From IMG/VR virus record IMGVR_UViG_3300030107_002828, positions 4,851 through 68,850 of that record: DNA of 64,000 bases. One strand, 5' to 3'. Shown one piece after another: positions 6,052 to 60,785 of the stretch. The DNA is from a virus. The notes under the pieces were generated by a model. The model was not told the origin of the DNA. It was given only the letters and a program-made list of their open reading frames with translations, and made no database searches. Made by a program: the position numbers and the translations under genes. Position 1 is the stretch's first letter; each line of letters opens with the position of its first letter.

Positions 6052-6804
6052 TTACAGATAATCAAGCACTTGTGAGTGATCAACATTGTCTATAAGTTTT
6101 TGTACAGCTTGTTTTTTCATCTCAGAAATTCGTACATAATCACTAGCTCCTTCAATACCTAATTTAACTGCTATTTGTTTTGCTGTGTGTTTGTCACAAT
6201 CTAATCCGTATGATAATCTTAACACTTCATATTCTTTTTCATTTAAATGTTTCTTTAATAAACTTGTTAAATAAATATTCATTAAATGAATATTATAAGG
6301 TTCAGATTTATCAGGAATTTGATACATCATATTTTCATCTGTATTGGGTTTCGCATCAATAGATAAAAATATACTATTAAAAAACATGGAAACCATTTTC
6401 TTATCTTTTCCATTATCTTTTCGTATCTTATTTAATTGATGTTCAGGTATTCTCATATCTCCTCTGTGCATATCAATTCTTCTTCTAATTGCTCCTTTAA
6501 TTCTTTTACTAAAAAAACTTTTTAATGTCTTTTCAATGTCTTCACTTTTCTTTAGTTCTGTCCAATCTAATTTATCAACAGCTCGTGTTAATCCTTCATT
6601 TCCACATTGCAATAAATCAAGTATAGATAATATACCTGATGCTTGATCACTAGTTGAAAATTTTCTAGCCATAATTTCTACAAGAGGCATGAATTTAACT
6701 ATCATTTCATTTCTTGTGTATTCTTTATAAGGTTTATCTAAAGGCATAGATTCCTTTAAATCTTCCTTATATCTAATATAATTCTGTATATTATATTTTT
6801 TCAT
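6052..6804 (-). CDS. phage sigma70-family RNA polymerase sigma factor
   Basis: Region 2: PLVEIMARKF...DLLQCGNEGLTRAVDKLD. Region 4 HTH: LNEKEYEVLRLSYGL...TAKQIA...RISEMKKQAVQKL. Confidence 0.9.
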   Translation of the reverse strand: MKKYNIQNYIRYKEDLKESMPLDKPYKEYTRNEMIVKFMPLVEIMARKFSTSDQASGILSILDLLQCGNEGLTRAVDKLDWTELKKSEDIEKTLKSFFSKRIKGAIRRRIDMHRGDMRIPEHQLNKIRKDNGKDKKMVSMFFNSIFLSIDAKPNTDENMMYQIPDKSEPYNIHLMNIYLTSLLKKHLNEKEYEVLRLSYGLDCDKHTAKQIAVKLGIEGASDYVRISEMKKQAVQKLIDNVDHSQVLDYL

Positions 6805-8699: not shown

Positions 8700-8824
8700 T
8701 AATATATATTTTTTTCTGCCCACTGTTGATATTCTTTCCAAGATTGTTCTTGGTTAAGGTAACCGTTGTAGACTCTACGTTTACCTATAAATTTAATTCC
8801 GTTAAAGTTTTCTAAAAATTCCAT
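8699..8824 (-). CDS. small hypothetical protein (41 aa)
   Basis: MEFLENFNGIKFIGKRRVYNGYL...IY*; TAATG coupling to the next gene. Confidence 0.55.
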   Translation of the reverse strand: MEFLENFNGIKFIGKRRVYNGYLNQEQSWKEYQQWAEKNIY

Positions 8825-8825
8825 A

Positions 8826-9290
8826 TTATTCTTCTTCTTTTTCTTCGTAATAATCTCCTGAATCTATTAACTCTTCTTTTTTCTCATCCCAGTATTCCAT
8901 GTATATATCTTCCCACCAGTGTTCTAATTCATAGTTGAAATCATACTCCATGTCTGACCATAAATGAGGTTCTACCCAAACATCACCACCTGATGTTAGT
9001 TCGTCCAGAGCTCTTGAAGACCAATCATTGTAATCCTCATAGTAATAACCATCTTGTGACACATAAGGTCTCTCGTCATGAGTACACCAGTATATATCAT
9101 AGCTATCGCACGTTGATTCACTGTATATTTTTAAACTGTGTCTATTATCAACCCAATCACTTGTGTTGTCTAATTTACCACCATATTCTTCTTGGATATA
9201 TTCTAATAACCAAGGACCATCTGGCTCTTGCATAAAGCCATCTGCTTCTAATTTTTCGATGATTATCTCATCTGTTAATAATTCTGCCAT
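8826..9290 (-). CDS. very acidic, aromatic-rich hypothetical protein (possible DNA mimic)
   Basis: 154 aa, strongly Asp/Glu-rich with many Trp/Tyr. Confidence 0.7.
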   Translation of the reverse strand: MAELLTDEIIIEKLEADGFMQEPDGPWLLEYIQEEYGGKLDNTSDWVDNRHSLKIYSESTCDSYDIYWCTHDERPYVSQDGYYYEDYNDWSSRALDELTSGGDVWVEPHLWSDMEYDFNYELEHWWEDIYMEYWDEKKEELIDSGDYYEEKEEE

Positions 9291-9306
9291 AATTTTAATT
9301 TAAAGT

Positions 9307-9440
9307 TAGTGGACGTGGCAGGAATCGAACCTGCGTTACCATGACTCGGTTGTATTCAGTGTAATACACTTCCGTAATGCCTAAAAAGGACACACATACA
9401 CTTACTGTTACCACGTCTCGGTCAATACCTTATCACGCCC
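9307..9440 (-). ncRNA. miniature tmRNA-like RNA (tRNA-like domain with Ala identity, about 131 nt)
   Basis: 5' GGGCGUG and 3' CACGUCC-A form a 7-bp stem with G3-U70. Stemless D-loop AUAAGGUAUUGAC, imperfect helix 2, T-arm GCAGG-UUCGAUU-CCUGC; ends A-CUA. Confidence 0.75.
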
Positions 9441-9446
9441 TTTTGT

Positions 9447-9704
9447 TTAGTCTAATAATACCATATAAGCTTGAGGATTTACAGTTCTAAACCAAGCTAA
9501 TCCTTTTTGCTGTAATTTAATCATCTCATCATCCCATCCTCTATGATCACCTACATAACTTAATCCCATGATTAAATCATACATAGATAATTCATTCGCG
9601 TTTAGTGACCAGTCTTCCCCACTAAATGGGTTTTCTACTGTACCACCTTCTTCATATACTGTACCATCAAACCAATCTGGTAATCTTTCATTTGTTTCTT
9701 TCAT
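9447..9704 (-). CDS. hypothetical protein
   Basis: 85-aa ORF ending WFRTVNPQAYMVLLD. Confidence 0.75.
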   Translation of the reverse strand: MKETNERLPDWFDGTVYEEGGTVENPFSGEDWSLNANELSMYDLIMGLSYVGDHRGWDDEMIKLQQKGLAWFRTVNPQAYMVLLD

Positions 9705-9710
9705 TTTATT

Positions 9711-10118
9711 TTAATTTAAGTAATTTCTTTTGTAAAATTCTAACATATAGTTTAATCTAGCCATTCCACTATATATTTTTTCTCTTGCTATCATCACATA
9801 TTTGTGAGTCACTAGTTTGTCTCCATCTAGCATAGTCCATCTAACATTTTGCTTATATTGTTTGTTAAGCTGATAATTAGATGAACAACTATTCTGATTT
9901 CTTACATATCCTGTTTTAAACACAGCTAATCTTAGTTTATCTTTAGAGTAAAACCATTGTTTATTTCTCCAATATTTTCTAGCAGGTGTAGGAAATTCAA
10001 ATTCCCTTGTCCCATTTTTAGCTTGTCTTTGTGTAGTTACTTCTTGAATACCATATTCTATGAGTAATCTTCTTACGTAAGCATCTTCAAATGCTTGTTC
10101 TCTTTGTCTCCAATTCAT
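9711..10118 (-). CDS. hypothetical protein
   Basis: 135-aa ORF coupled to the upstream gene. Confidence 0.7.
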   Translation of the reverse strand: MNWRQREQAFEDAYVRRLLIEYGIQEVTTQRQAKNGTREFEFPTPARKYWRNKQWFYSKDKLRLAVFKTGYVRNQNSCSSNYQLNKQYKQNVRWTMLDGDKLVTHKYVMIAREKIYSGMARLNYMLEFYKRNYLN

Positions 10119-10348
10119 TATTCAGATTTTAAAAATTCGTTTCCATACATAATATCTGCACCGCTAACATCATAACTATGCTTGTCAGTAAACATTAGTA
10201 TGTCTCTAATAGTATCTAATGGTAAATCATACCAACCATCTGAAGCCATAAGTTTATACTTAAGTCTTTTAGCTGTACGCCATTTGTGAGAAGCCAATCT
10301 TATCTTTATTTGATAATGAGGCTTGAGTTGTTGCCATGTGTTTTTCAT
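10118..10348 (-). CDS. hypothetical protein
   Basis: 76-aa ORF just downstream of a class I promoter. Confidence 0.7.
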   Translation of the reverse strand: MKNTWQQLKPHYQIKIRLASHKWRTAKRLKYKLMASDGWYDLPLDTIRDILMFTDKHSYDVSGADIMYGNEFLKSE

Positions 10349-10361
10349 AATTGTTTTATTT

Positions 10362-10392
10362 TATTATCTTACTATATTCGTATTATGTTTCG
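10362..10392 (-). promoter_or_regulatory. class I promoter motif
   Basis: CGAA-ACA-TAATACGA-N9-GATAATA. Confidence 0.75.
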
Positions 10393-10405
10393 TGACATTT
10401 TGTCA
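10393..10405. promoter_or_regulatory. palindromic operator TGACA-N3-TGTCA
   Basis: Perfect copy directly abutting the class I promoter; three more copies at 14165-14217. Confidence 0.6.
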
Positions 10406-10410
10406 TATAG

Positions 10411-10484
10411 ACGCGGGAGTAGGATTCGAACCTACGACCTCGAGCTTATGAGGCTCGCGAGCTGACCAACTGCTCTATCCCGCA
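10411..10484 (-). tRNA. tRNA-Met (CAU), initiator-like body with atypical anticodon stem
   Basis: Cloverleaf: UGCGGGA/UCCCGCG; D-arm GAGC/GCUC; anticodon arm CGAGC-CUCAUAA-GCUCG; T-arm GUAGG-UUCGAAU-CCUAC. CCA not encoded (CTA follows). Confidence 0.92.
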
Positions 10485-10490
10485 ATATTT

Positions 10491-10691
10491 TGGGTGATAC
10501 TGTGCACGTATCCACGCTTTCATAATTGTACTAAGTGAACATCTTGCCTAAGCTCAGAACGCAAAGTCACAATTGGGGTCTAGTGTCTAACTCATTAACC
10601 TGACTCATATTTACCAGGTTGAGAAATTTGTAGTTTTCCGCGTATCCGTTTAGTAGCTACTACACTATTCCGTCCTTCGTGTTTTAACCCA
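10491..10691 (-). ncRNA. putative 201-nt structured RNA
   Basis: Terminal stem UGGGU/ACCCA; internal helices UAGUGU/ACACUA, AACCUG/CAGGUU, AAUUGU/ACAAUU, GAUAC/GUAUC; no ORF. Confidence 0.55.
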
Positions 10692-10692
10692 T

Positions 10693-10742
10693 TAGAGAGC
10701 ATAGCGGGATTCGAACCCGCACTTTAGTACCGTAGTATGCTC
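10693..10742 (-). ncRNA. minimal tRNA-like element (acceptor stem plus T-arm, no anticodon arm)
   Basis: GAGCAUA-(15 nt with GG)-GCGGG-UUCGAAU-CCCGC-UAUGCUC-U-CUA. Confidence 0.75.
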
Positions 10743-10751
10743 TGTTGCCTC

Positions 10752-10807
10752 TAGAGGCCTTGAGGACTTACATCTGCTTTGAACCATATAGGTGCATCAA
10801 TGCCTCT
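10752..10807 (-). ncRNA. putative small structured RNA
   Basis: Terminal stem AGAGGC-A-UUGA / UCAA-G-GCCUCU; ends in CUA. Confidence 0.5.
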
Positions 10808-10814
10808 TATATTT

Positions 10815-10941
10815 TAGAGGTGGTGTTTCGGAACAGGTAGTTACTAGTATTATCATTTATACCGTTTTCTGTTTTGACGCACCCCGATCGATTCTAATGC
10901 CCCGGTAATCGCCTAACGTGACCTGTATGCCACCACCTCTA
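10815..10941 (-). ncRNA. putative 127-nt structured RNA
   Basis: 11-bp perfect terminal stem UAGAGGUGGUG/CACCACCUCUA followed by ACAGGU/ACCUGU. Confidence 0.6.
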
Positions 10942-10946
10942 TATTT

Positions 10947-11004
10947 TAGACGTGCTCGTACGTTTTTGGGTCGAGTAACAATGCCACACTCGCATCCACG
11001 TCTA
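10947..11004 (-). ncRNA. putative 58-nt structured RNA
   Basis: 8-bp terminal stem UAGACGUG/CACGUCUA with inner hairpin CGAGU/ACUCG. Confidence 0.55.
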
Positions 11005-11066
11005 AGGTGTAATATTGCTTCAATTAATAACCACGCCGTGTTACCGCTACTTTAATAAGCGCACCT
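11005..11066 (-). ncRNA. putative small structured RNA
   Basis: AGGUG/CACCU closing stem; inner GCUU-AUUAA/UUAAU-UG-AAGC. Confidence 0.4.
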
Positions 11067-11105
11067 CGATTTATGTATTAATTACTGTTATTATTACTAC
11101 CTATT

Positions 11106-11186
11106 TAGTAACTAAAAGAGGAATCGAACCTCTTTATCCGTCGATAGTATCGCGCTCGTTAAAACGTTTACGCTCCATACTTAGTT
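11106..11186 (-). ncRNA. tRNA-like RNA with canonical acceptor/T-arm and non-canonical D/anticodon region
   Basis: AACUAAG/UUUAGUU-A-CUA and T-arm AGAGG-UUCGAUU-CCUCU; the middle cannot be folded as a normal anticodon arm. Confidence 0.6.
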
Positions 11187-11198
11187 ATCCAGTAATCT

Positions 11199-11325
11199 AT
11201 TGATACCTAATCGGTTAGCTATTCAGTTATGTGTTCATAGTTTTATTCTATAGGAGATTTCGTAAAACGTCTATCCCAAACCTTCAATGAACCTAATTAA
11301 CCTACTCGTCTAACTATCTATCAAT
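11199..11325 (-). ncRNA. putative rod-like RNA
   Basis: Nested helices AUUGAUA/UAUCAAU, GUUAG/CUAAC, GUUA/UAAC, GUUCAU/AUGAAC. Confidence 0.45.
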
Positions 11326-11327
11326 GA

Positions 11328-11516
11328 TTACAAGTGCCATTCTTTTAATAATTTAATGGCGTATGATTTAATTTCATTGAAAGTTCTATCATCTAACATT
11401 CCATCATCAAATGTTACTATTCTTTCTAATTGTCTTTCTATTTGACCACAGAGCTCAGTTGCTTCTTTGTCAATATAGTCTTCTTTCATCATCTCGTATG
11501 CTTTTTTACTATCCAT
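11328..11516 (-). CDS. early hypothetical protein
   Basis: 62-aa ORF in a tightly packed cluster. Confidence 0.65.
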   Translation of the reverse strand: MDSKKAYEMMKEDYIDKEATELCGQIERQLERIVTFDDGMLDDRTFNEIKSYAIKLLKEWHL

Positions 11517-22154: not shown

Positions 22155-23708
22155 ATGTCCGATAAACTTGTGAAACATCTTAACTTCGGTCAAGATGCAA
22201 AAGATCAAATATTTAAAGGGATAAATAAACTCACTAAAGCTGTTAGCTCCACATTAGGAGCTAGCGGCAAGTGTGTTATCCTGGAAGATGATCAAGGAAA
22301 ACCCATTATAACCAAAGATGGTGTAACGGTTGCAAACTCAGTAGTATTGTTCGATGCTGTTGAAAACATGGGTGCAACATTACTAAAAGAAGCTGCCAGA
22401 AAAACTGTTGAAGAAGCAGGAGATGGCACAACTACAGCTACAGTATTAGCTCAAGCAATATTAACAGAAGCTGTAAAAGAAAATATTAATACTAGAGATT
22501 TAAAAGAAGGTATTAATTCAGGTGTTAAAAAAGTTGTAAATTATTTAGACAATATTAAAATAGATGTTACAGGTGACATGATTAATCAAGTCGCTACTAT
22601 ATCTTCAAATAATGACAAAGAATTAGGGGAACTAATTGGAGGAGCATTTAAAAGTGTAGATAAAACAGGTATTGTAATAATGGAAGAATCTAAAGATTTA
22701 AATTCTTCTGTTGAAATAATTGATGGTATGCAGTATGATAAACCTTTAAAAAGTTTACATTTTGCTACAGATAAAAACAAAGAAATTGCTGAATTAAAAA
22801 ATCCTTCGGTTCTAATAGTTGAATCTAAAATTGAAAACATACGTAAAATACAAGGTATTTTAGAGCATGTTATAAAAACAAATGAATCTTTATTTATTAT
22901 AGCAGATGTAGAACCTCAAGTTCTCGCTGCATTAGCAATGAATAAGATGAAGGGTAATATAAAAGTGTGTATTGTAGATGCTCCAACTTATGGATTCACA
23001 AAAAAAGAAAAATTAAATGATTTAGCTTTAATGACTGGAGCTACAGTTATTAATGAAGATTTAGGTGATGATATGGATTTAATACATCCTCAACATTTAG
23101 GAAAAGCTAAAAAAATAACTAGTAATAAAGAAAATACTATAATACAAGTTAAAGAAACTCCAGAAGCTGTAAAGGATTTGATTGAAGAAATTCAACAAAA
23201 ACAAGCAAAAGAAAAAATTCCTGGATATAAACTAGCATATGAAAAAAGACTATCGTTATTAGCTGCTAAAGTAGCCGTCGTCAAAGTAGGTGCTAACTCT
23301 GAAATTGAATTAAAAGAGAAGAGTGATAGAGTCGAAGATGCAATTTGTGCTACAAAAGCCGCAATAAAAGAAGGTATAGTTCCCGGTGGTGGTGTTGCTT
23401 TACTTAACGCTGCGTTTAATAATGATGAAGATAATATGGGGGAAAAAATATTAATGAGAGCAATATTAGCCCCTTATAAAAAAATATTAGATAACGCTGG
23501 TATTGAGAAAATTACAATGCCTGAAAAAAACGGGTTTGGTATTAATGTGGTTACAGGAAATATGGTAAATATGATTGACAGTGGAATTATAGACCCACTA
23601 TTAGTCACAAAAAGTGCGTTACTAAATGCGGCTTCTGTAGCGACAACTATCTTATCAACTGATTGTATAATAAATAATATTAGAATTCATGAGGGCGATA
23701 GGAAATAA
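22155..23708 (+). CDS. groEL: chaperonin GroEL (phage-encoded)
   Basis: [34 protein letters not shown]; no GGM tail. Confidence 0.97.
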
Positions 23709-27344: not shown

Positions 27345-27683
27345 ATGGGACATCCAATACATAAACACATGCACACTCACATTACAAAACAAAATGTGAA
27401 AGCAGCAATCCGTGACGATAAAGCTCATATGGATTATCTTAAAAGAGATATTAAAGATGATGCAAGAGGTAAAGGAGACGGTAATAAAGAGTGGGAAACT
27501 GCTGATGAAAAACATATTACTAATTTAGCTAGAGACGTTAAAGATGATGAGAGAAAAGAGCACATATCAAGACATTCTTCTGACAAACAATTAACAATGG
27601 AAAGAAGAGCTGCTCTTAATGAAGACGATCCAATTAAAGATAGAGAGTGGGATTCAATACATAACACTAAAAAACTAGGATAA
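27345..27683 (+). CDS. His/Asp/Lys-rich hypothetical protein
   Basis: Repeated H-x-x-x-L-x-R-D-I/V-K-D-D. Confidence 0.7.
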   Translation: MGHPIHKHMHTHITKQNVKAAIRDDKAHMDYLKRDIKDDARGKGDGNKEWETADEKHITNLARDVKDDERKEHISRHSSDKQLTMERRAALNEDDPIKDREWDSIHNTKKLG

Positions 27684-50882: not shown

Positions 50883-53800
50883 ATGCAAGACAAACTAAAC
50901 CAGATCCTTTTTAAAAGTGATTATTGGAAAAACTTATCTAATCCTGAAAAGAGTGCTCTTAATTATCCTTATGCAGCAGGAGAAGAGCAAAGAAGAAAGT
51001 GGTTAGAAGAACATGGTGTTCTTGAACAAACTAATGTTGCGGTTGAAGAAGAAGTTTCTGGTGATGATAATATTGAAGAAGTTGAGGTTGAGGAAGTAGA
51101 ACCTAAAGAAGAGTCGGTATCTACGGAGGTTTTAGCTGGTAGAAATGGTGCTGAAAAAATGTGGAAATATTTTAAGGATAATGGACAAGTAACTCAAGAT
51201 TTTGAAACTTGGTACAAAAAATTAAAAGAAAACCCTTCAGCTCAAGAGAAATTATATCAATTTGGTAGAGGTAAAGGTTTTATTACACAGGATTATAATA
51301 CATGGAAAAATAAATTAACTGGTTATACGGGAACAGAAAATATAACTATTTTTGGGGAAACTGTTAATGATGAAGAACAAAATACTGAAAATCAAGCTAA
51401 TAGTTGGAGCTCTCAAAACGATGCTATAGTAACTAAAATAAGTAGATTAAGAAATAACCCTATATTATTTACTCAAGCTGATGTTGATGCTGGTATTGCT
51501 AAACCAAATCAAATAGGTAATATTAATGCAGCTGCTACAAATGAAAAAATAAAAGAATTACAAGATTCTGCACCTACTATATATACGTTTGATGAAGAAG
51601 AGGCAAGAGCTACTTATAAAGCTGAAAGAGAACAAGAATTAACTGATTATGAAAAAGAAAGAGCAGGTAGTTTAGGTATTACAGAAGAAGGTGAAGAAAT
51701 TTACGACAGTGGTTCTATGTTTAAAGATGATAAATTAATGCATGGCTACTTGTTAAAGCATTGGAACAAAACAGGTTTATTATCAGGTAAAGTAAATATT
51801 GACAAGTTAAGAACTGTAGCTGAAAGAATAGGTTTTGATATGAATAAATTTGAAAGATTATCAAAAGCTAGATATGATACTGGAGAGGGAAGTTTAGCTA
51901 GAGAGCTGTTGTTAAAGCTAGAAGAATACATGGTAACTAAAAGTACAGGAGGTAGACAATTTATATTAAAAGGTAATATGAGTGGTTATAGTACTGGAAA
52001 CGTTCCTGATATATCTAAAAGAGTAAGTGTGCTTGACGATAGAGATGTTCTTACAGATGAAGAAATAGAATCAAGAATACAATTAGATAAAGATAGAGTT
52101 GCTCTGTGGCAAAAAGGTGAACTTGAATTAGATACTAAAGAGTTAGCTGGAATAATAGGTATTAGACCTGAAGCGCAACAGTTTGTTAATTCATTTTTTC
52201 CAGAATCAATAGATAAAGAAGACGATGTAAATAAAATAGCATCTGCAGCTATTAGTAAAGCAGCGCAAGCAGATCCTAGGTTTGCATTAATACAAAATGA
52301 GATTAATGAACACTTAGTAGATCAGTCAAAAGAAAAATGGTCTGAACTATCTAAAAAATATGGAGAGAACGGGGAAATTACTACTCAAACAGATTTAGAA
52401 GCTGCTCAAAAAGAATTTGCTGAATGGTATAATAAAAGCTTTAATGAATCTTTGCAAAATAATAAAGAAGCAACTGATTTATTTCAAATGTATGGAATAG
52501 CGGGAGAAAGAGCTTTAGATAAAAGACTTAAAGAAGATAGAAACTATAAGCCAGGAATGAAAGATGATTATGTCTTAAACTGGGTTAATGATCAACTAGA
52601 TAAATACGAGGATGATGATAGTTTTCATGGTAAAGTAAGAGAGGAATTAGCTTATATGGCACAGGCTTTTCATAAAGTACCTGTGACAACAGAAGAATGG
52701 ACAAATAGTTTTGAAGTATCACTTGCTGGAGGACAACAACGTAGAAGACAGAAAATAGTAAATGAACTTAATTGGGGTTTAGAAAATGGTAAGATAACCA
52801 ACGACATGACTCTAGGTGAAGCTAGAAAATATGTTAAAGGATTAGATGATAGATTAACTTGGCATGATTGGGGTTGGACAGATAATGACACTGTAGGTGA
52901 TTATTTATCTAGAAAAGAAATTAGAAAAGAAAATACAGAAGATAGAATACAGTTTGATTTAGACGAAAGAGATGCAGCTCTTAAACATTTAAATAATTTT
53001 GTTACTAGAGAAGTAGAAGATGGAATGTTTGACAGTATTGAAGGTTTTGGTAGTACAATAGTTGGAGGTATTGATCAAATAACCCACATGGCTCCTCGTA
53101 TAGCGGGTTATGGTTTAATGACAGCTGGTACTTTAGCTACAGTTTTTAGTGGTGGTACTGCTACGCCTGTTGGAGCTGGATTATTCTATACTGGTATGGG
53201 GTTAAGTGCTATTGGTAACACTGTTCAAGGAGCTATGGAATATGCTGATATTTACATGAGTTCATTAGAAAATAAAATGACTGAACAATATGGAGAAGGA
53301 GGTTTTACCACAGATGAATATATTCAAGCATTAAATGAAGGATTAGGTATGCATCAAGGAGCAGCTGTAGCAGGTGGTGTAGGTGTTGCGGCTTCTGAAT
53401 TTGCGTTTGATGTACTTGGTTCTAAACTTGGAGGATCTGGAGCTGGTTTATTATTTAAAAATCCAGCAATGCAAACTATTGTAAAGAACACTTTAGGTAG
53501 ATATTTAGCAAGAGCAGGAACAATGTATGGAGAATATAAATTAGGTCAGTACAAAGAAGGTGTAACAGAAGGATTCCAGTCTTATTTATCACAAGCTACA
53601 ACTAATATGGCATCAGGATATGCGTCTCCATTTAGTAGAAATATTGATTTTGATCAGATATATACCGAATATAAAGCTGGTAAGAAAATGGGTAGTTTAT
53701 TTGGAATGGGTGGTATCGCTGGTCAGTTTAAAGGAGGTTTATATTCAGCTGATGGATATGTAGCTAATGCTACTAAAATTGCAGAAAATATTGATATGTC

Positions 53801-56800
53801 TCCAGATTCATCTACGTTCTTAACAGCTAATGCTCATTTTGATCAATTGATAGAAAATGTTAATTCAGATACAAAGTTAGATCCTAAGCAAAAAAGAGAA
53901 GCTATAAAAAATATTTCTGACATTAGAAGTTCTACAATAAAAATTCCTAAAACTATTACTGGTGAAACAAAAGGTAAATTAATAGATTTATTAATTGAAA
54001 AGAAAACATTAGAAACTAAAATTAAAGCCGTAGGAGATACGGATATTAGCGCTAGTGATATATCTAGAAAAAATGCTATTGGTGAAGAAATACAAAAAAT
54101 AGTAGATGATGCTAATGTGGAGTTAGCACTAGATAAAAATGTTGGTAATGTTAGACAAATTGTACATAAAAGCTCTAAAGGTAAAATTACAATAGATGAA
54201 GTAGCTGATGCTAAAGAAGCTAACGCGTTTGCAAAAAGTGAAAGATTACAAGGCTGGAAAACAAAGTATTCAAGTAATCAAGGTACAATATTACAAAACC
54301 CTAAGACAGGCGAACAAAAAATAATAATAAATAGAGATCAAGCTCTTAAAGATCAGGCGGTTAATGTAGCTGGTCATGAGTTTTTACATGGTTTATTATT
54401 TGAAACAGTAAAAAATAGTCCTGAGACTGCTATAAATATGGGTAATGCTTTAGATTCTGAACTAAAGAAATTAAAAGTAAGTGAAGATAGTAAATATTAT
54501 AAGCGTTTAGAACGATATAAAAATGATCCAGAAGCTATGACAGCTGAAGAAAAACTAACTTTATTTTCTGATGCTTTAGCTTCAGGTGATTTAAAATTTA
54601 ATGAAAATATCTTTACTCAAATAGGAGATAATATTAGAAGGGTTTTACAAGCTGTTGGATTAAAAGGAATAAAATTTAATAATGGTAGAGATGTTTATAA
54701 TTTTATAAAAGACTACAACAGTTCTATAGAAAAAGGCGAACTTAACATAGCACAAGAAAAATTGTTAGCTGGTAAAGCTGAAGGTGATTTAATAGTAGAT
54801 GAAGTAATAGATACTGATAAAAAAGCAAAAGCTTCAAAACCTGGAACTAAAACTACAATTCCTAAATCAGCACCAACAAAAGATATATATAAAGATTTTG
54901 CAGAAAGAACGTGGGCAGAAGACTTACAAAAATCTAAAGATAATATAAATACACAGTTTGGAGCAGGTACTGTTGAAACAATTAAACAGACTGTTCCCTG
55001 GGAGACATTTAAAAAACGACAAATTGAAAGAGGAATAGACTGGGACGGCCAAATAAAAGCTAATGATGAAAGTAGAATGCAACGAGATTATGAGGCTGTT
55101 CAAAGAGATATTAAGAAACAGAAAGATGCAATTAAAGCTGAAAAATTTAGAACAACAGCACCAAGAGATAAATTTGGAAGCATAGATACAGATAAAATTT
55201 TAGCTGAAAAAAAGAAGAAAGAAATACAAGGTAAATCTTCTAAATCTGATAAGAAAGTTAGTAAAGCTAGACAAGCAGACTTAGATAGAATGACGCCTAA
55301 TCAAAGACGAGCTGAAGAAGGATATTCACCTTGGGAACTGGTTAGACAACCTGATGGATCTTTAAAACTGGATAGTAAATTTATAGGTAGAACCGCAGCG
55401 ATAGCAGCTTTAAAACGTCAAGGTGATTCCAATCAGGGTATGGATTCGTTGTTAAAAAAGGACAAAGCTTTTGAACCTCAATACAGTGCTAAGTCATCAA
55501 AAGGCGATACTCAATCATTATCTAATCTTACTAAAGAATATCAAGATGGTAATTATGATAATGTAGAAGATTTAGCAGCGCAATATCAAGCTGCGGGTAG
55601 AGATGCGTTAAAAAGATGGGCTGGACAGCGGAAAGTTCCTTTAAATCTTAGTAATCCACAGTTTAATAATGAAGTAACAAGTTTGTTAAACAAAGAGTTT
55701 CCTAGTTTTATTAAGAATTTTGATCCATCAAAATCAGAAGCATCTACATACATGAATCAAATTGCTAAAAGAGTTGGTCCTAAAATTGTAGAAGAAGCAA
55801 CTAGAAAAGGAAAGCAAGTTAGTCAAGATGTTTTAAGTGAAAAAGGAGTAGCTGTAGAAACTACAACTCAAAAAGATTTTGATTCAACTAAACAAAAAGA
55901 TACAGGTAGAAAGAAGAAATATCCTTCTTCAATACCTGCTGTTAAAAATCAAATAACAGAAAATGTTGCTGCAGATTTAGTAGGTGGAATTGTTGATGGG
56001 AAACCTGTGGGATTAGCAAAAGATATAATATCTAGTATTAATAGAAATACTGATCCTGAAAAAGTAGCTCAAAATATAATAGCTGACACTAAAGATAAAA
56101 GTGTTATGCGTACTATGAGAGAGTTAGTAGGTAAATGGGGATCACCAGAGTACAACGCTTTTGTAAACACAATAATTGATCAAGGATTGATTGGTACAAT
56201 ACCAGCTTCTACAATAAAGCGAAGACTAGGTAGACAAAGTAATGTTGATTCTGGCTTAATTAATTATAAAAAAATAGGTAAGACAGATCAAATAAAAGTT
56301 AAAGATGGTAAGAAAACTTATTCACGTCCTGATGTCTATGCTATAACTAAATTAGATAAAAATAAGTTAAAAGATTATTATAAAGATAACGAAAAAAGAC
56401 AACAGTCTTTATTTAGCATGTTAACTGAAGGTATCATGGCTGAGGGTGTACAAACTCTTAGAAATGATAAAAACTTCATGGATAAGTTACAAGATGTATT
56501 AGAACTTAAAAAATCTCCATTAACTGCTGAGGAATTTATGGATGGTTTAGAGCAGAAGTTAGATCAACGTACTAAAGAAGATAGATCATTAGATGAAGTA
56601 ACAGTTAAGTCAGCTAAAAAAGATGTTCCTCTTACAGCTAAAGAAAAAAAGCAATTAAAAGATGATGCTAGAGTTCAAATCAAAGAGTTAAACGATTATA
56701 ATACTTTACCTACTAAAGCAGGTGTTAAGTTAACAAAAGACGAAAAACAAATCAAGCAAGTAGGAACTATAACAGCTCATTATAAAATGGGTGATAGTTT

Positions 56801-59800
56801 CCATGTTCCTAGTACTATTGCAGGAGGAACTTCAACATCTATATATCAAGTACAAAGTGAAGCTAATAGAGATTTAAATAGATCTTTAGACGCAGAGACA
56901 GTTGCTATATTAGAATCAGAAGGTATACCTACAATAAAAAGAAATGGTAAAGTATATTACGATAAATCAAAGGCGAATAATATTGATATAATTCTTACTG
57001 ATAAAAAAGGAAATATAGTTACTCATGAAAAAAGCGATAAAAGAAGAGGTATTAAAAAAGGTGACCCTGTAAGCACTATTCAAGAAGCTCAAAGTGAACA
57101 ACTAAAATATTCAACCTGGAGTTGGAAAACATTTTTATCTAAGATAGCTGATCCTAATTGGAGAAAGCAACAAGCAAATAAAATAAAGGTACTTAAAAAT
57201 ATAGCCAAAACAATAGCAGATGATTTAAACTCAGTGGCTAAAGATAGTGAAGCTTATAAAAGAAAATTAACCTACTGGACAGCGTGGTTAGAAGCTCAAG
57301 TAAATAACAGCATGCATCCTATCAGGGCTTTAGCTCCTATAAAATTTTGGAGTAAATTAATGAAAGGCAAAATGAGAGCAGAACATGCTTTCCCTGCTAA
57401 TCAAGTTGCTAGTATGATTTTAGGTATGGCAAAAAGAAATACCGTAGATAGAGACTTTAAGTTTATTGAAAAAAATTATATTCAAGGTAAAATAACAGAA
57501 GTTCAAGATAATTTAATAAAAAGAAACTATGATGGCGTAGATCTTACTAGAGATATACAAGATGAGTTTTTTGATAATGAAACCGGAGTTTGGATAAGAT
57601 ATACAGATCCTTCTATTAATGATAAAAAAGGTGGTATTAATAATAATACTTTATTGGTTTGGGATAAAAATGGAAAAAGACAAACTCTTACTGAATCATT
57701 AGGTGTAGGTTTAACGCCTTCTCAATACAATATGCCAAAAGGTGGTCCTAGAGCGGGAAGAATGAATCAAAACCTTATACAAGAGCAAAACAACTTTATA
57801 TATGATATGCTTACAAAAGGTGAGCCAACTGCTAAGGTTGCTAAAGAAAGATTAACTGCTAAATATAATTTAAAAGTTCAAAGAACTAAAACAAATGTAG
57901 TTGCTAAGAATAGTAAATCATTTGGTGATCAAATATTTGATGAAGAAGCTACTAGTACTGCTCAAAAAGAAACAATGTTAAATTCTTTAGAAACTAGAGT
58001 TTTAGCGGCTAAACCTAATAGACCTGCAAAAGGTATAAGTATATTTGATTTTGATGATACACTTGCTAAAACAAAAGAAAAAGTAATTGTTATTGATAAA
58101 GATGGTAAAAGAAGTGAAATATCAGCATCAGAATTTGCTAAAACAGCTGATATATTAGTAGAAGGAGGAGCTTCATTTGATTTTAGTAATTTTGAAAAAG
58201 TAGCTAAAGGAACTAAAAAAGGACCATTAGCTGATATTGCTTTAAAACGTCAAGGTAAGTTTGGTAGTGGTGATATATTTGTTTTAACCGCTAGACCACA
58301 AAGCGCGGCTCCAGCTATAAAACAATTTTTAGATAGTATAGGATTAGATATACCTTTAGAAAATATAACAGGATTAGCAGATGGAACAGCTCAAGCTAAG
58401 GTTGATTTTGTTTTAAATAAAACCGCGGAAGGATATAATGATTTTTATTTTGCTGACGATTCTATTCCTAATGTTAAAGCGGTAAAAGAAATATTAAATG
58501 AAATAGATATAAAATCTGATACTGTTATAGCTAAAGCTTCTAAACAAGATTCATTAAATAAAGATTTTGAAAAACAAATAGAAGAAGTTACTGGTGTTGA
58601 AAGTTTTAAAAAATATTCAACAGTTAGAGCTAAGTTAGAAGGAAAGAAAAAGGATGCTGGTTTTCTTAAAAGAGTAAAAAGACAATTTACTATAACCTCT
58701 TCTGCGGATGACTTCTTAGGTTTGTTATATCCAATCATGGGTAAAGGCGAACAAGGAAATAAACATAGAAAGTTTATTGATGATAATTTAATGAATCCAT
58801 ATAATAAAGCTGAACAAGAATTAATGTCAGCTCAAATGAGTATTGCTAGAGATTTTGAAAATCTTAAAAAACAGTTTCCTAGTTTAAAAAGTACTGGTTT
58901 AAGCAATCCTTTAATGGATGAAATTGGAGTTGGACCTTATACTAAATCTCAAGCAATTAGAGTTTATATGTGGCACAAGCAGGGTATGGAAATTCCTGGT
59001 ATGTCTAAGCGAGATATTAATGATTTAGTAAAAGCGGTTGAATCAGATAATGAGTTAAATGTTTTTGCTGACGAGGTAATGCTTATAACAAAAGGTCATG
59101 GTTACCCAGCTCCTACTAATAATTGGTTAGCTGGTAATATATCACAAGATATTATATCAGAATTACAAACTGGACTTAGACCGATGCTTATGGCGGAGTT
59201 TAATGAAAATGTAGAAAAAATATTTACTCCTGATACAATGAATAAGTTAGAAGCTATTTATGGAAGTAAATGGAGAGAGGCTTTTGAAGATAATTTACGT
59301 AGAATGAAATCCGGTAGTAATAGACCGGTTTATGTAGGTGGTGGAGCTAGAATAGTAAATGAAATGTTAGATTGGTTGAATAAAGCAGTTGGTAATATGA
59401 TGTTCTTAAATATTAGATCTGGTACATTACAGCTTTTATCTAATGTAAATTTTATAAATTGGGGTGATAATAATATATATAACGCAGCAAAAGCTTTTGT
59501 AAGTAAAGATTATTGGCCAACAGTAATGAAGTTATTAAATTCTGATTATTTAGTTAATAGACGTGATGGATTAAAAATTAATGTTAATGAAGCTGAATTA
59601 GCAGATGCTGGTAAAAAAGGTGGGTTTAAAGGTGCTTTATCTTATTTACTTGACAAAGGTTTTGTTATAACAAGAATAATGGATAGTGTAGCAATTGCAA
59701 CAGGTGGAGCCACATTCTTTATCAACAGAAAAAAAGCTTTATTAAACAGAACAAATCCTGAAACTAATAAAAAATATACTGAAGCAGAAGCAGAAGCAAA

Positions 59801-60785
59801 AGCATTTGATGACTTCTATGCTATATCTGAAGAAACTCAGCAGTCTAGTAATCCAAGTAAAATATCTCAACAGCAAGCAAGTTTGTTTGGTCGTACAATA
59901 TTAGCTTTCCAAAATGTTACAATGCAGTACAATAGAAAGGCTAAGAAAATGTTACTTGATTTAATTAATAGAAGAAAAAGACCAGGTATGACACAGCGTG
60001 AAAGTGATCTTAGTAATATATCTGGTGTATTGTATTACACTACTGTACAAAACCTAGTATTTAATTCTATGCAACAGGCTTTATTCGCGTTAATGTTTGA
60101 TGATGCTACAGATGAAGAAGAAAAAGATAAAGCCGCGAATATACTTAACGGTATGTTAGATTCTATATTATTTGGATTTGGATTTGGTGGAGCTATAACA
60201 TCTACAGTGAAAAATGTAGGATTAAAAATATTAAGTGAATCTGAAAGAAAATCTCCAGATTATGAAGAAGCGGTGTGGGAAGTATTTAATGTATCACCTG
60301 TTATAGATTCTAAGGTTCGTAAATTAAGATCTGCAGCTAAAACTTTTAATTGGAATATGGATAAGGTAAAATCAAGAGGTTGGAGTATAGAAAATCCTGC
60401 GTACTTAGCTGTAGCACAAGTATTATCTTCTGGTTTTAATATTCCTATAGATAGAGTTTTACAAAAATATAATAATATGGCTCAAGCTATGGACGAAGAA
60501 ACTCGTACTTGGCAAAGAATAGCTTTAATTATGGGTTATAGTGGTTGGAACTTTGATCTACCTTATTGGGGAACACAAAGCCATTTATTAGCAGAACAAG
60601 CTGAGATCGAAGAAATGAAGCAAGATTATAAATATAATGCTAAAAAATTAAAAGCTCAAGGATATAAAAGAATACCATTAACTGGACCTAAAGCAGGTAA
60701 ACCCGATGGTAAATTAAATGAAGATTATATAGAAGTAGAGAGATGGGATGGTGTTATAGAATATTGGATAAATTTAAATAAATAA
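50883..60785 (+). CDS. giant (3300 aa) polyvalent virion/ejection protein: membrane segment, zincin, sigma2-like module, HAD phosphatase
   Basis: Gly/Ala hydrophobic stretch near 53100-53230; HEFLH at 54375; FDPSK..STY at 55719; DFDDT/LTAR/FADD at 58047-58460. Confidence 0.85.
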   Translation: MQDKLNQILFKSDYWKNLSNPEKSALNYPYAAGEEQRRKWLEEHGVLEQTNVAVEEEVSGDDNIEEVEVEEVEPKEESVSTEVLAGRNGAEKMWKYFKDNGQVTQDFETWYKKLKENPSAQEKLYQFGRGKGFITQDYNTWKNKLTGYTGTENITIFGETVNDEEQNTENQANSWSSQNDAIVTKISRLRNNPILFTQADVDAGIAKPNQIGNINAAATNEKIKELQDSAPTIYTFDEEEARATYKAEREQELTDYEKERAGSLGITEEGEEIYDSGSMFKDDKLMHGYLLKHWNKTGLLSGKVNIDKLRTVAERIGFDMNKFERLSKARYDTGEGSLARELLLKLEEYMVTKSTGGRQFILKGNMSGYSTGNVPDISKRVSVLDDRDVLTDEEIESRIQLDKDRVALWQKGELELDTKELAGIIGIRPEAQQFVNSFFPESIDKEDDVNKIASAAISKAAQADPRFALIQNEINEHLVDQSKEKWSELSKKYGENGEITTQTDLEAAQKEFAEWYNKSFNESLQNNKEATDLFQMYGIAGERALDKRLKEDRNYKPGMKDDYVLNWVNDQLDKYEDDDSFHGKVREELAYMAQAFHKVPVTTEEWTNSFEVSLAGGQQRRRQKIVNELNWGLENGKITNDMTLGEARKYVKGLDDRLTWHDWGWTDNDTVGDYLSRKEIRKENTEDRIQFDLDERDAALKHLNNFVTREVEDGMFDSIEGFGSTIVGGIDQITHMAPRIAGYGLMTAGTLATVFSGGTATPVGAGLFYTGMGLSAIGNTVQGAMEYADIYMSSLENKMTEQYGEGGFTTDEYIQALNEGLGMHQGAAVAGGVGVAASEFAFDVLGSKLGGSGAGLLFKNPAMQTIVKNTLGRYLARAGTMYGEYKLGQYKEGVTEGFQSYLSQATTNMASGYASPFSRNIDFDQIYTEYKAGKKMGSLFGMGGIAGQFKGGLYSADGYVANATKIAENIDMSPDSSTFLTANAHFDQLIENVNSDTKLDPKQKREAIKNISDIRSSTIKIPKTITGETKGKLIDLLIEKKTLETKIKAVGDTDISASDISRKNAIGEEIQKIVDDANVELALDKNVGNVRQIVHKSSKGKITIDEVADAKEANAFAKSERLQGWKTKYSSNQGTILQNPKTGEQKIIINRDQALKDQAVNVAGHEFLHGLLFETVKNSPETAINMGNALDSELKKLKVSEDSKYYKRLERYKNDPEAMTAEEKLTLFSDALASGDLKFNENIFTQIGDNIRRVLQAVGLKGIKFNNGRDVYNFIKDYNSSIEKGELNIAQEKLLAGKAEGDLIVDEVIDTDKKAKASKPGTKTTIPKSAPTKDIYKDFAERTWAEDLQKSKDNINTQFGAGTVETIKQTVPWETFKKRQIERGIDWDGQIKANDESRMQRDYEAVQRDIKKQKDAIKAEKFRTTAPRDKFGSIDTDKILAEKKKKEIQGKSSKSDKKVSKARQADLDRMTPNQRRAEEGYSPWELVRQPDGSLKLDSKFIGRTAAIAALKRQGDSNQGMDSLLKKDKAFEPQYSAKSSKGDTQSLSNLTKEYQDGNYDNVEDLAAQYQAAGRDALKRWAGQRKVPLNLSNPQFNNEVTSLLNKEFPSFIKNFDPSKSEASTYMNQIAKRVGPKIVEEATRKGKQVSQDVLSEKGVAVETTTQKDFDSTKQKDTGRKKKYPSSIPAVKNQITENVAADLVGGIVDGKPVGLAKDIISSINRNTDPEKVAQNIIADTKDKSVMRTMRELVGKWGSPEYNAFVNTIIDQGLIGTIPASTIKRRLGRQSNVDSGLINYKKIGKTDQIKVKDGKKTYSRPDVYAITKLDKNKLKDYYKDNEKRQQSLFSMLTEGIMAEGVQTLRNDKNFMDKLQDVLELKKSPLTAEEFMDGLEQKLDQRTKEDRSLDEVTVKSAKKDVPLTAKEKKQLKDDARVQIKELNDYNTLPTKAGVKLTKDEKQIKQVGTITAHYKMGDSFHVPSTIAGGTSTSIYQVQSEANRDLNRSLDAETVAILESEGIPTIKRNGKVYYDKSKANNIDIILTDKKGNIVTHEKSDKRRGIKKGDPVSTIQEAQSEQLKYSTWSWKTFLSKIADPNWRKQQANKIKVLKNIAKTIADDLNSVAKDSEAYKRKLTYWTAWLEAQVNNSMHPIRALAPIKFWSKLMKGKMRAEHAFPANQVASMILGMAKRNTVDRDFKFIEKNYIQGKITEVQDNLIKRNYDGVDLTRDIQDEFFDNETGVWIRYTDPSINDKKGGINNNTLLVWDKNGKRQTLTESLGVGLTPSQYNMPKGGPRAGRMNQNLIQEQNNFIYDMLTKGEPTAKVAKERLTAKYNLKVQRTKTNVVAKNSKSFGDQIFDEEATSTAQKETMLNSLETRVLAAKPNRPAKGISIFDFDDTLAKTKEKVIVIDKDGKRSEISASEFAKTADILVEGGASFDFSNFEKVAKGTKKGPLADIALKRQGKFGSGDIFVLTARPQSAAPAIKQFLDSIGLDIPLENITGLADGTAQAKVDFVLNKTAEGYNDFYFADDSIPNVKAVKEILNEIDIKSDTVIAKASKQDSLNKDFEKQIEEVTGVESFKKYSTVRAKLEGKKKDAGFLKRVKRQFTITSSADDFLGLLYPIMGKGEQGNKHRKFIDDNLMNPYNKAEQELMSAQMSIARDFENLKKQFPSLKSTGLSNPLMDEIGVGPYTKSQAIRVYMWHKQGMEIPGMSKRDINDLVKAVESDNELNVFADEVMLITKGHGYPAPTNNWLAGNISQDIISELQTGLRPMLMAEFNENVEKIFTPDTMNKLEAIYGSKWREAFEDNLRRMKSGSNRPVYVGGGARIVNEMLDWLNKAVGNMMFLNIRSGTLQLLSNVNFINWGDNNIYNAAKAFVSKDYWPTVMKLLNSDYLVNRRDGLKINVNEAELADAGKKGGFKGALSYLLDKGFVITRIMDSVAIATGGATFFINRKKALLNRTNPETNKKYTEAEAEAKAFDDFYAISEETQQSSNPSKISQQQASLFGRTILAFQNVTMQYNRKAKKMLLDLINRRKRPGMTQRESDLSNISGVLYYTTVQNLVFNSMQQALFALMFDDATDEEEKDKAANILNGMLDSILFGFGFGGAITSTVKNVGLKILSESERKSPDYEEAVWEVFNVSPVIDSKVRKLRSAAKTFNWNMDKVKSRGWSIENPAYLAVAQVLSSGFNIPIDRVLQKYNNMAQAMDEETRTWQRIALIMGYSGWNFDLPYWGTQSHLLAEQAEIEEMKQDYKYNAKKLKAQGYKRIPLTGPKAGKPDGKLNEDYIEVERWDGVIEYWINLNK

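What the first reader, a model, noticed from the sequence alone, without database searches (positions are those of the whole stretch)
9307..9440. Miniature tmRNA-like RNA: intact Ala tRNA-like domain with only ~59 nt where the mRNA domain should be
Minus strand: GGGCGUG AUAAGGUAUUG ACCGAGAC-GUGGU [59 nt] ACCGA-GUCAUGGU AAC GCAGG UUCGAUU CCUGC CACGUCC A CUA. It has the hallmarks of the tmRNA tRNA-like domain: G3-U70 and A73 (AlaRS identity), a stemless D-loop with GG ending in GAC, a long irregular helix 2, a 3-nt linker and a T-arm. It is 131 nt versus ~350 nt for a typical bacterial tmRNA. The insert holds a hairpin or possible pseudoknot and a possible micro-frame (GAAGU|GUA UUA CAC UGA), with no normal degradation tag. 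Tag-less tmRNAs are known from jakobid mitochondria. Inference: it rescues stalled ribosomes without marking proteins for decay, or is an SmpB/AlaRS decoy.
Basis: partly seen in the sequence, partly recalled or inferred. Interest (0 to 1): 0.88.

Follow-up and report, generated by a model that had tools for sequence, protein, structure and literature searches.

The report
Phage tag-less mini-tmRNA gene
A marine phage carries a 131-base RNA gene that copies only the alanine-accepting, tRNA-like end of the bacterial ribosome-rescue RNA (tmRNA); this kind is known from one mycobacteriophage, but here it has a swappable inner arm, and it probably interferes with the host's rescue-and-tagging system.

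Summary
On the minus strand, 9440-9310 has a 7-bp acceptor stem with G3:U70 and A73, a stemless GG...GAC D-loop, an irregular helix 2, a 3-nt linker and a T arm. Rfam's tmRNA model aligns both ends in register at 36.6 bits, E 2.5e-12. That is under the 47-bit cut-off because the whole mRNA-like body is missing. ARAGORN sees nothing.

It belongs to a family of 73 distinct members, 68-149 nt, in uncultured marine Flavobacteriia-type phage contigs. The frame is nearly invariant, helix 2 is kept by 53 different sequences, and the interior is freely swapped. No tag frame is conserved.

The closest known relative is the 'TLD only' tmRNA of mycobacteriophage DS6A. Most likely the RNA is matured like a tRNA, engages host AlaRS/SmpB/EF-Tu and competes with host tmRNA; none of this is tested. 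Expression evidence is weak. This scan has reported the same family before on other DNA. Verdict: a new variant of a known kind.

The parts
9307..9440 (-). whole mini-tmRNA gene (131 nt to the discriminator, plus CUA)
   Evidence: Sequence; fold; RF00023 36.6 bits; family model R1 59.2 bits, E 5.3e-13, the only strong R1 hit in the window
9434..9440 (-). acceptor stem, 5' strand GGGCGUG (G3 at 9438)
   Evidence: Pairs with 9311-9317; G3:U70 in 73 of 73 family rows (the rows were selected for pairing, not for U70)
9423..9433 (-). stemless D-loop analogue AUAAGGUAUUG; its last G begins the GAC motif
   Evidence: Unpaired in the MFE; aligned in register with the tmRNA consensus AucuGGaUUC|GAC
9410..9422 (-). 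helix 2a, 5' strand ACCGAGACGUGGU
   Evidence: 11 pairs with two 1x1 mismatches; the same frame occurs in L030, L032 and L244 with other interiors
9351..9409 (-). 59-nt interior in place of the pseudoknots and tag message: internal loop, CAG/CUG, distal module
   Evidence: Rfam deletes 276 model positions here
9358..9402 (-). portable distal module with invariant loop GGAAGUGUAU
   Evidence: MFE hairpin; 41 nt are 100% identical in L011 outside any tmRNA-like frame; variants lie inside and outside such frames
9338..9350 (-). helix 2a, 3' strand ACCGAGUCAUGGU
9335..9337 (-). linker AAC before the T stem
   Evidence: AAC is the family consensus
9318..9334 (-). T arm GCAGG-UUCGAUU-CCUGC
   Evidence: compensatory changes at two T-stem pairs in the family
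9311..9317 (-). acceptor stem, 3' strand CACGUCC (U70 at 9313)
9307..9310 (-). discriminator A73 (9310) and CUA in place of CCA
   Evidence: A73 in 73 of 73 and CUA in 66 of 73 members
9447..9704 (-). upstream ORF (85 aa); its stop codon lies 6 nt before the RNA
   Evidence: homologues in 35 of 80 element-bearing loci; no Pfam or PHROG family
8826..9290 (-). downstream ORF (154 aa); its ATG lies 16 nt after CUA
   Evidence: homologues in 35 of 80 loci; no family

Best explanation
This is a phage gene for a tag-less 'mini-tmRNA'. It keeps the tRNA-like domain of tmRNA (acceptor stem with the alanine identity pair G3:U70 and A73, stemless D-loop, T arm) plus helix 2. The pseudoknot ring and tag message are replaced by a short, exchangeable structured arm.

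Shown: the anatomy, the homology to the tmRNA tRNA-like domain, the family, and the absence of a conserved tag frame.

Inferred:
- The RNA is cut out of an early polycistronic transcript like a tRNA, by RNase P at the 5' end and an endonuclease after A73. The encoded tail is CUA, not CCA, so CCA would then be added.
- It is charged by host AlaRS and bound by host SmpB and EF-Tu.
- Because it cannot supply a resume codon, its most likely net effect is to compete with host tmRNA for SmpB and stalled ribosomes, which would blunt tagging during infection.
- The arm projects where tmRNA's helix 2 leaves the ribosome, so its content is free to vary.
For: (1) Anatomy.

(2) Homology to tmRNA.
- RF00023 aligns both ends, the D-loop and helix 2a in register at 36.6 bits, E 2.5e-12.
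- Seven relatives score 34.9-42.6 bits, with tmRNA as the best family of the tRNA clan.
- In two Bacteroidetes MAGs the mini elements score 36.7 and 37.9 bits, against 26.9-28.4 bits for tRNA-sized matches. The two I read carry UGC or GGC at the anticodon position.

(3) The D-loop GGUAUUGAC differs at one base from GGUUUUGAC, found in two Bacteroidetes tmRNAs and in the full tmRNA of Cellulophaga phage phi38:1.

(4) Selection for alanine identity.
- Acceptors GGGCGUG, GGGAGUG, GGGGGUG, GGGUGCG and GGGGUAG change pairs 4-6 on both sides but all keep G3:U70 and A73.
- All 18 strong matches in loci chosen by a neighbouring protein, not by the RNA, keep both.

(5) Helix 2 is conserved as structure. 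In 60 of 73 members 5 or more consecutive pairs close the arm, against 21.5% of shuffles, and 53 distinct helix sequences do this.

(6) The frame is far more conserved than its neighbours. The 5' 17 nt and 3' 32 nt are near-identical across loci whose ligase, sigma and flanking proteins are 33-83% identical.

(7) Literature.
- Peptidyl transfer to a TLD-only tmRNA occurs in vitro (passage of PMC3895274).
- SmpB contacts the D-loop/variable-loop elbow through A15, U17, A334 and G19 (passage of PMC8363625). If, as I recall, G19 is the G of GAC and A334 the A before the T stem, both are kept here.

(8) It is not a host fragment. All 6 genome-contig matches to the 22-mer are complete mini elements on phage-like contigs.
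Against: - Nothing functional was tested: no alanylation, SmpB binding, processing or CCA addition.
- The score is below Rfam's cut-off (36.6 against 47 bits).
- Pair 4 is C:G where the tmRNA consensus has G:C, and the linker is AAC where the consensus has GGAC.
- The phage has no SmpB of its own.
- The gene is dispensable in the lineage. By my count, only 13 of 25 ligase-selected loci with at least 5.5 kb upstream carry it. The 10 without it that I scanned have no tmRNA either.
- One of 71 copies has A3-U70 (L059).
- The arm's modules move between this frame and other RNA units (28 of 48 arms), so the arm, not the tmRNA-like frame, could be the working part.
- The same phage has other tRNA-like units that lack alanine identity but share the T arm and the CUA tail. 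That fits a general scaffold or punctuation role.
- Expression is not shown. One contig of an RNA library covers 9306-9434 with 2 differences, but such libraries can hold DNA.
Confidence: 0.45

Rival explanations
1. The frame is a chassis and the arm is the tool. The tmRNA/tRNA-like frame mainly provides precise excision by RNase P and RNase Z, plus stability, for small structured RNA modules carried in the arm. These could be decoys or aptamers for unknown host or phage partners. Processing also cuts the early polycistronic mRNA at this point. Engagement of SmpB would be secondary or absent.
For: - 28 of 48 arms of 30 nt or more have a match of at least 28 nt and 80% identity outside any such frame in another locus.
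- This window's module is 100% identical over 41 nt to one in a different scaffold in L011.
- Conversely, the module in window unit 11199-11325 sits inside the tmRNA-like frame of L005.
- L244 keeps this element's helix 2a and internal loop but has another distal hairpin.
- The module's outer stem co-varies around an invariant GGAAGUGUAU loop (my reading).
- The element is wedged 6 nt after a stop codon and 16 nt before an ATG. In 63 of 73 members an ORF of at least 40 aa starts within 200 nt downstream, commonly 10-19 nt after the tail.
- Other tRNA-like units with the same CUA tail lie in the array at 10411-11325.
Against: - A mere chassis would not need G3:U70, A73 and a tmRNA-type D-loop, yet these are kept through five acceptor variants.
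- The phage's other frames lack them and score only 14.9-19 bits with the family model.
- Members with a 25-nt arm (68-70 nt in all) carry hardly any cargo.
- No module matched an Rfam family or a host sequence.
Confidence: 0.25
2. Tag-free ribosome rescue. The alanyl mini-tmRNA, with host SmpB and EF-Tu, enters ribosomes stalled on broken mRNAs and accepts the nascent chain. The ribosome is then freed by another factor without a degradation tag. This would help the phage keep ribosomes working while host or phage nucleases cut mRNAs.
For: - The same anatomical evidence as for the best explanation.
- Peptidyl transfer to a TLD-only tmRNA has been observed in vitro (passage of PMC3895274).
- CDS-less tmRNAs persist in organelles whose SmpB is imported, which suggests some use without a tag (passage of PMC11915505).
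Against: - There is no resume codon or stop codon, so release needs an unidentified factor.
- The one reported test of such a molecule found inhibition of tmRNA, not rescue (passage of PMC4131195).
- No release-factor-like or SmpB gene was seen near it.
Confidence: 0.13
3. A working miniature tmRNA whose interior encodes a very short tag.
For: An in-frame stop follows within 2-8 codons in five of the six other copies of the module that I read (L011, L012, L029, L059, L065). Two-residue tags exist in some bacteria (passage of PMC11915505).
Against: - The module is absent from most family members.
- It also occurs outside tmRNA-like frames.
- In L021 the frame runs into the T arm.
- No alanine-type resume codon or hydrophobic tail is present.
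- Stops are frequent in DNA of about 31% GC.
Confidence: 0.03
4. A relic: either an attP-type copy of the 3' end of a host tmRNA or tRNA gene, or a decayed tRNA-Ala or tmRNA pseudogene.
For: Phages often carry 3' fragments of ssrA because it is an integration site (passage of PMC9004378). One copy (L059) has lost G3.
Against: - Both halves are present and co-vary.
- The phage genome has no integrase.
- The 22-mer is in no host tmRNA among the genome contigs; 6 of 6 hits are complete mini elements.
- The frame is much better conserved than the neighbouring proteins.
Confidence: 0.03

Closest known systems
'TLD only' (CDS-less) tmRNA of Mycobacterium phage DS6A (tmRNA Website tmID 11587; passages of PMC4131195 and PMC11915505)
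   Same: [quoted passage not shown] The proposed action (inhibiting host tmRNA, perhaps by titrating SmpB) is the one I favour here.
   Different: The host phylum differs (Actinomycetota against Bacteroidota-type phages). Here it is a large family whose helix 2 carries exchangeable structured modules of 25-105 nt, embedded in or next to an array of other small RNAs. I did not fetch the DS6A sequence, so direct homology between the two was not tested.
One-piece bacterial tmRNA (Rfam RF00023), including the full-length tmRNA of Cellulophaga phage phi38:1
   Same: It shares the acceptor with G3:U70 and A73, the stemless D-loop ending in GAC, helix 2a and the T arm, all aligned in register. phi38:1's tmRNA (87.6 bits, 362 nt) also ends in A-CUA.
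   Different: It has no pseudoknots, resume codon or tag frame: 276 model positions are deleted, and the score is 36.6 bits against a 47-bit cut-off.
CDS-less tmRNAs of jakobid mitochondria and some plastids
   Same: These are tRNA-like domain only, and are presumed to work with an SmpB encoded elsewhere (passage of PMC11915505).
   Different: They are organellar relics of about 65-100 nt with no variable arm, and they are not viral. I did not test this element against the mitochondrial model separately, because clan competition shows only the best family.
tRNA-Ala
   Same: G3:U70, A73 and the T arm.
   Different: It has no D stem and no anticodon arm. Rfam's tRNA model reaches 26.5 bits (cut-off 29), and only by using an internal false 5' strand. 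ARAGORN finds nothing.

Membership tests
tmRNA (RF00023) | Acceptor stem with G3:U70 and discriminator A73 (alanine identity) | tested here: met
   Kept in 73 of 73 family rows and in 18 of 18 matches in protein-selected loci across three acceptor types. One exception among 71 copies of the 22-mer.
tmRNA (RF00023) | Stemless D-loop with GG, ending in GAC at the start of helix 2a | tested here: met
   AUAAGGUAUU|GAC aligns without gaps to the consensus AucuGGaUUC|GAC. GGUAUUGAC is one base from the GGUUUUGAC of Bacteroidetes and phi38:1 tmRNAs.
tmRNA (RF00023) | T arm and short linker joined to helix 2a | tested here: met
   The linker is AAC where the consensus reads GGAC.
tmRNA (RF00023) | Pseudoknot ring (PK1-PK4) | tested here: not met
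   Only 59 nt lie inside helix 2a, and 276 model positions are deleted. The MFE shows one branched hairpin. A small pseudoknot in the arm was not tested with a pseudoknot-aware tool.
tmRNA (RF00023) | Resume codon and tag reading frame | tested here: not met
   No conserved frame. Arms are non-homologous across 73 members, and the proposed micro-frame lies in a module that also occurs outside the frame.
tmRNA (RF00023) | Rfam gathering score (47 bits) | tested here: not met
   36.6 bits. Relatives score 34.9-42.6 bits.
TLD-only phage tmRNA (DS6A type) | [quoted passage not shown] | tested here: met
   The window is an IMG/VR virus record with phage primase, ligase and terminase. For the anatomy.
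TLD-only phage tmRNA (DS6A type) | Inhibits host tmRNA, perhaps by titrating SmpB | not testable with these tools
   Known only from the passage of PMC4131195 citing Mao et al. 2009.
TLD-only phage tmRNA (DS6A type) | Sequence homology to the DS6A element itself | not tested
   I did not fetch the DS6A record.
tRNA (RF00005) | D stem, anticodon arm with a 7-nt loop, cloverleaf of 70-90 nt | tested here: not met
   26.5 bits against a cut-off of 29, with a partial false alignment. ARAGORN finds none. The 68-nt members also lack both arms.
attP copy of a host tmRNA/tRNA 3' end | Only the 3' part present, identical to a host gene, with an integrase nearby | tested here: not met
   The 5' half is present and co-varies. 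There is no integrase. The 22-mer is found in no host tmRNA.

The most novel reading that the evidence does not exclude
These phages run a modular RNA toolkit. A handful of tRNA-like frames, the tmRNA-like one being the most constant, serve as chassis into which portable structured modules are shuffled by recombination. The tmRNA-like frame would then deliver its module, through SmpB and EF-Tu, to stalled ribosomes or to the SmpB/RNase R machinery. On this reading the arm is a targeted cargo rather than filler. It would be a natural counterpart of engineered tRNA scaffolds (that comparison is recalled, not tested).
Probability: 0.18. Interest if true: 0.8.

Novelty: new variant of a known kind. 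Interest (0 to 1): 0.52.

Why it matters
Tag-less tmRNA derivatives in phages rest in print on a single example, DS6A, and on one inhibition experiment. That is as far as I could see in searches and in the passages I read. Here the same idea appears as a large, strongly constrained family in abundant marine Flavobacteriia-type phages that standard annotation misses: ARAGORN finds none, and the Rfam score is below the cut-off. If these RNAs bind SmpB, then control of trans-translation is a common phage strategy in the ocean. The family would offer natural sequence variants for mapping what AlaRS and SmpB need. The exchangeable arm adds a separate question, whether phages shuffle functional RNA modules between tRNA-like frames.

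Tried and rejected
- **DNA searches in the phage collection.** blastn of 9150-9600 found no match. A 42-nt query of the 3' end found only generic T-arm similarity to tRNAs of unrelated phages.
- **Degenerate 5' pattern.** Of the 63 new loci I examined (L078-L140), 58 had no tRNA-like frame, one hit (L084) looked like chance, and four were real members. I did not run that check on L141-L174; the wider scans covered all loci.
- **Rfam.** Nothing but tRNA at gathering threshold in the window or in 12 loci, so the neighbouring RNA units and the arm modules have no named family.
- **Neighbouring proteins.** No PHROG or Pfam family for the flanking ORFs or for the commonest downstream ORF. The phage genome has no SmpB and no integrase.
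- **Host origin of the arm.** A 71-nt query of the interior against 301 genomes of the phylum of G001 gave 5 matches of 21-40 nt at E 0.003-0.008 per genome. That is chance level.
- **Cultured relatives.** Of 5 records searched whole (MW202828.1, Flavobacterium elemoF, Maribacter Panino, Cellulophaga phi38:1, Tenacibaculum Gundel), none has a family member. The best R1 scores were 32.6 bits or less, against 52-86 bits for members, and the four I read lack the frame.
- **Loci without the element.** Ten ligase-selected loci without it have no tmRNA over the cut-off.
- **Sequencing runs.** Five RNA-labelled runs held 5-9% of the words of 8800-11400, and I laid four of them. Bins without cover (for example 9583-9930 in all four) and the runs I did not lay say nothing. 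All runs are contigs, so no ends, strand or level can be read.
- **Supplements.** The supplementary tables of PMC11915505 and PMC9004378 list viral tmRNAs and may hold further CDS-less phage forms that I could not see.

Full report
**What is there.**
The window is positions 4851-68850 of a 68,850-bp IMG/VR virus record. GC is about 31%. It has a leftward arm of small early ORFs and replication genes: primase/helicase, ERF, a sigma factor and a DNA ligase. It has a rightward structural arm with the terminase.

RNAfold returns the same architecture as its MFE: a 7-bp acceptor, 11 unpaired nt, an 11-bp helix with two 1x1 mismatches, a 59-nt interior, AAC and a T arm. The energy is -42.2 kcal/mol, z = -2.05, and 5 of 200 shuffles fold as well. 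The element has 46% GC in a region of about 33%. It sits 6 nt after the stop codon of an 85-aa ORF and 16 nt before the ATG of a 154-aa ORF.

**Detectors.**
ARAGORN reports only the tRNA-Met at 10410-10484, and Rfam at gathering threshold finds the same. In a first permissive scan the tRNA model gave 26.5 bits (cut-off 29) by pairing an internal false 5' strand.

The tmRNA model RF00023 matches the whole element at 36.6 bits, against a cut-off of 47. The E-value is 1.1e-14 for the phage genome, where it is the only match at E <= 10, and 2.5e-12.

The alignment is informative. The acceptor, the 10-nt D-loop, the GAC that opens helix 2a, both strands of helix 2a, the T arm and the 3' end are all in register. 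276 central model positions (pseudoknots and message) are deleted.

Seven relatives score 34.9-42.6 bits, with tmRNA as the best family of the tRNA clan. In two Bacteroidetes MAGs the genuine tmRNAs score 142 and 174 bits, the mini elements 36.7 and 37.9 bits (a third, tandem copy scores 25.2), and tRNA-sized matches 26.9-28.4 bits. The two of the latter that I read have UGC or GGC at the anticodon position.

**The family.**
The last 22 nt occur exactly in 64 IMG/VR stretches and in 6 genome-contig stretches. The latter are all short or phage-like contigs binned into MAGs. Every one has a 5' acceptor strand upstream, and in 70 of 71 occurrences it carries G3. The exception is L059, with A3-U70.

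A script collected 73 distinct members. It required a perfect 7-bp acceptor starting GGG, a perfect T stem and a GG in the D region, so pairing in this set is by construction.
- They are 68-149 nt long.
- All have A73.
- 66 have CUA after it.
- 60 close the arm with 5 or more consecutive pairs, against 21.5% of shuffled interiors.
- 53 different helix sequences do this closing.

On the MAFFT alignment of the 73 rows, five of the 12 acceptor and T-stem pairs show changes on both sides. No shuffle out of 500 reached the observed values, and G3:U70 is in all rows.

To remove the bias of searching with the RNA itself, I fetched 44 loci by the neighbouring DNA ligase and searched them with a covariance model of the family (R1).
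- 18 loci have a match of 52-86 bits, 9 of them on contigs not seen before.
- They carry three acceptor types (GGGCGUG 12, GGGAGUG 5, GGGGGUG 1) and four T-stem sequences.
- All 18 have G3:U70 and A73.
- By my count, 13 of 25 loci with at least 5.5 kb upstream of the ligase carry the element. It is therefore common but dispensable.
- Ten loci without it have no tmRNA either.

Loci with the element share this window's early genes at 33-83% amino-acid identity. The RNA's frame, by contrast, is nearly invariant.

**Host and relatives.**
The best protein matches are to phages of Cellulophaga, Tenacibaculum, Flavobacterium and Maribacter, so a marine Flavobacteriia host is likely. None of five related named records, searched whole, has a family member.

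Cellulophaga phage phi38:1 has a full 362-nt tmRNA at 87.6 bits, and it also ends in A-CUA. The D-loop here, GGUAUUGAC, is one base from the GGUUUUGAC of that tmRNA and of two Bacteroidetes tmRNAs.

**No tag.**
The arms of the 73 members are not alignable, and the shortest leave about 25 nt.

This module recurs inside the frame in L021, L029 and L059. It recurs outside any such frame, in another scaffold, in L011, L012, L043 and L005. The putative frame ends at different places, and in L021 it runs into the T arm.

More generally, 28 of 48 arms of 30 nt or more have a match outside any tmRNA-like frame in another locus. This window's arm has 41 identical nt in L011. The exchange is reciprocal: the module of window unit 11199-11325 sits in the tmRNA-like frame of L005. 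L244, the closest relative, keeps helix 2a and the internal loop but has another distal hairpin.

**How it most likely works.**
Shown: a constrained, alanine-identity, tmRNA-type tRNA-like domain with a structurally conserved helix 2 and no message.

Inferred from established knowledge of tRNA and tmRNA maturation: excision by RNase P and a 3' endonuclease, then CCA addition, because the gene encodes CUA. The same tail follows the phage's tRNA-Met and other tRNA-like units.

Inferred from the literature:
- SmpB binds the D-loop/variable-loop elbow (passage of PMC8363625).
- A TLD-only tmRNA accepts the peptide in vitro (passage of PMC3895274).
- A TLD-only molecule strongly inhibits tmRNA, perhaps by titrating SmpB (passage of PMC4131195).

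I therefore favour a competitor of host tmRNA (0.45) over a chassis for the arm modules (0.25) and tag-free rescue (0.13). These three are not exclusive.

**Expression.**
One 545-nt contig of a metatranscriptome library covers 9306-9434 with 2 differences. It joins the element directly to units of the RNA array, as in many relatives. Its depth is 24.6, against 4-14 for the contigs of neighbouring ORFs, which differ at about 8% of positions. This is only a weak hint, because RNA libraries can hold DNA and contigs show no ends.

**Known or new.**
Phage tmRNAs are known (passages of PMC9004378). A 'TLD only' form is listed for DS6A. I found no paper describing a family of such RNAs or a swappable arm. 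This rests on searches, in which I saw listings and abstracts, and on passages of the papers named above. Supplements were closed.

Earlier reports of this same scan describe the family on other genomes and reached the same reading. I reached mine from my own calls before seeing them. The exception is the first-stage notes on this window's RNA array, which pointed me to the neighbouring units.

Noticed in passing
window 10411-11325 (minus strand): An ORF-free array of small structured RNAs sits 1 kb upstream. It holds a canonical tRNA-Met followed by several units, some tRNA-like (10693-10742, 11106-11186) and each followed by CUA. None has an Rfam family. The same units and modules recur, reshuffled, next to the mini-tmRNA in relatives.
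   Followed up: partly
window 9307-9309, 10408-10410, 10693-10695, 11106-11108; phi38:1 tmRNA (L180); Panino (L181): The discriminator is followed by CUA instead of CCA in the phage's tRNA-Met, its tRNA-like units and the mini-tmRNA (66 of 73 members). The same holds for the full tmRNA of Cellulophaga phage phi38:1. This may be a lineage-wide 3'-processing signature, with one base change from CCA perhaps licensing endonucleolytic cleavage. That explanation is an inference.
   Followed up: partly
window 9365-9374 (loop of the arm module) and L011, L012, L021, L029, L043, L005: The module's invariant single-stranded GGAAGUGUAU is kept while its outer stem co-varies. From recall, it resembles a Shine-Dalgarno-like purine tract. 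No partner was identified.
   Followed up: no
L074 (G001:C16:53388-53650), L047 (123-210 and 436-541), L059 (79-260): Some contigs carry two mini-tmRNAs in tandem. In L059 the first copy has A3-U70 and the second has a different acceptor (GGGAGUG) with G3:U70, as if one copy were decaying.
   Followed up: partly
L209:231-312: This 82-nt member has acceptor GGGGGUG/CACCUCC and D-loop AUAUGGUUUUGAC. That matches the host-type tmRNA motif more closely than the main family does, so it could be an intermediate form.
   Followed up: no
PP540027.1 (Maribacter phage Panino) 27557-27889, locus L190: The record's annotated tmRNA overlaps tRNA-Asp and tRNA-Thr. RF00023 matches only 27560-27651, at 26.1 bits. 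The 3' end looks tmRNA-like (GGAC, T arm, CACCUCC-A-CUA), but the 5' strand used belongs to the preceding tRNA's T arm. The annotation looks doubtful.
   Followed up: partly
window 22155-23708, 6052-6804, 50883-60785: The phage encodes a GroEL-type chaperonin (PHROG 5725, E 7.8e-134), its own sigma factor, and a 3300-aa ORF in the structural arm.
   Followed up: no
loci (e.g. L013:10422-10673): In 63 of 73 members an ORF of at least 40 aa begins within 200 nt after the tail, commonly 10-19 nt after it. The commonest downstream protein (18 members, about 80-94 aa) has no Pfam or PHROG family.
   Followed up: partly
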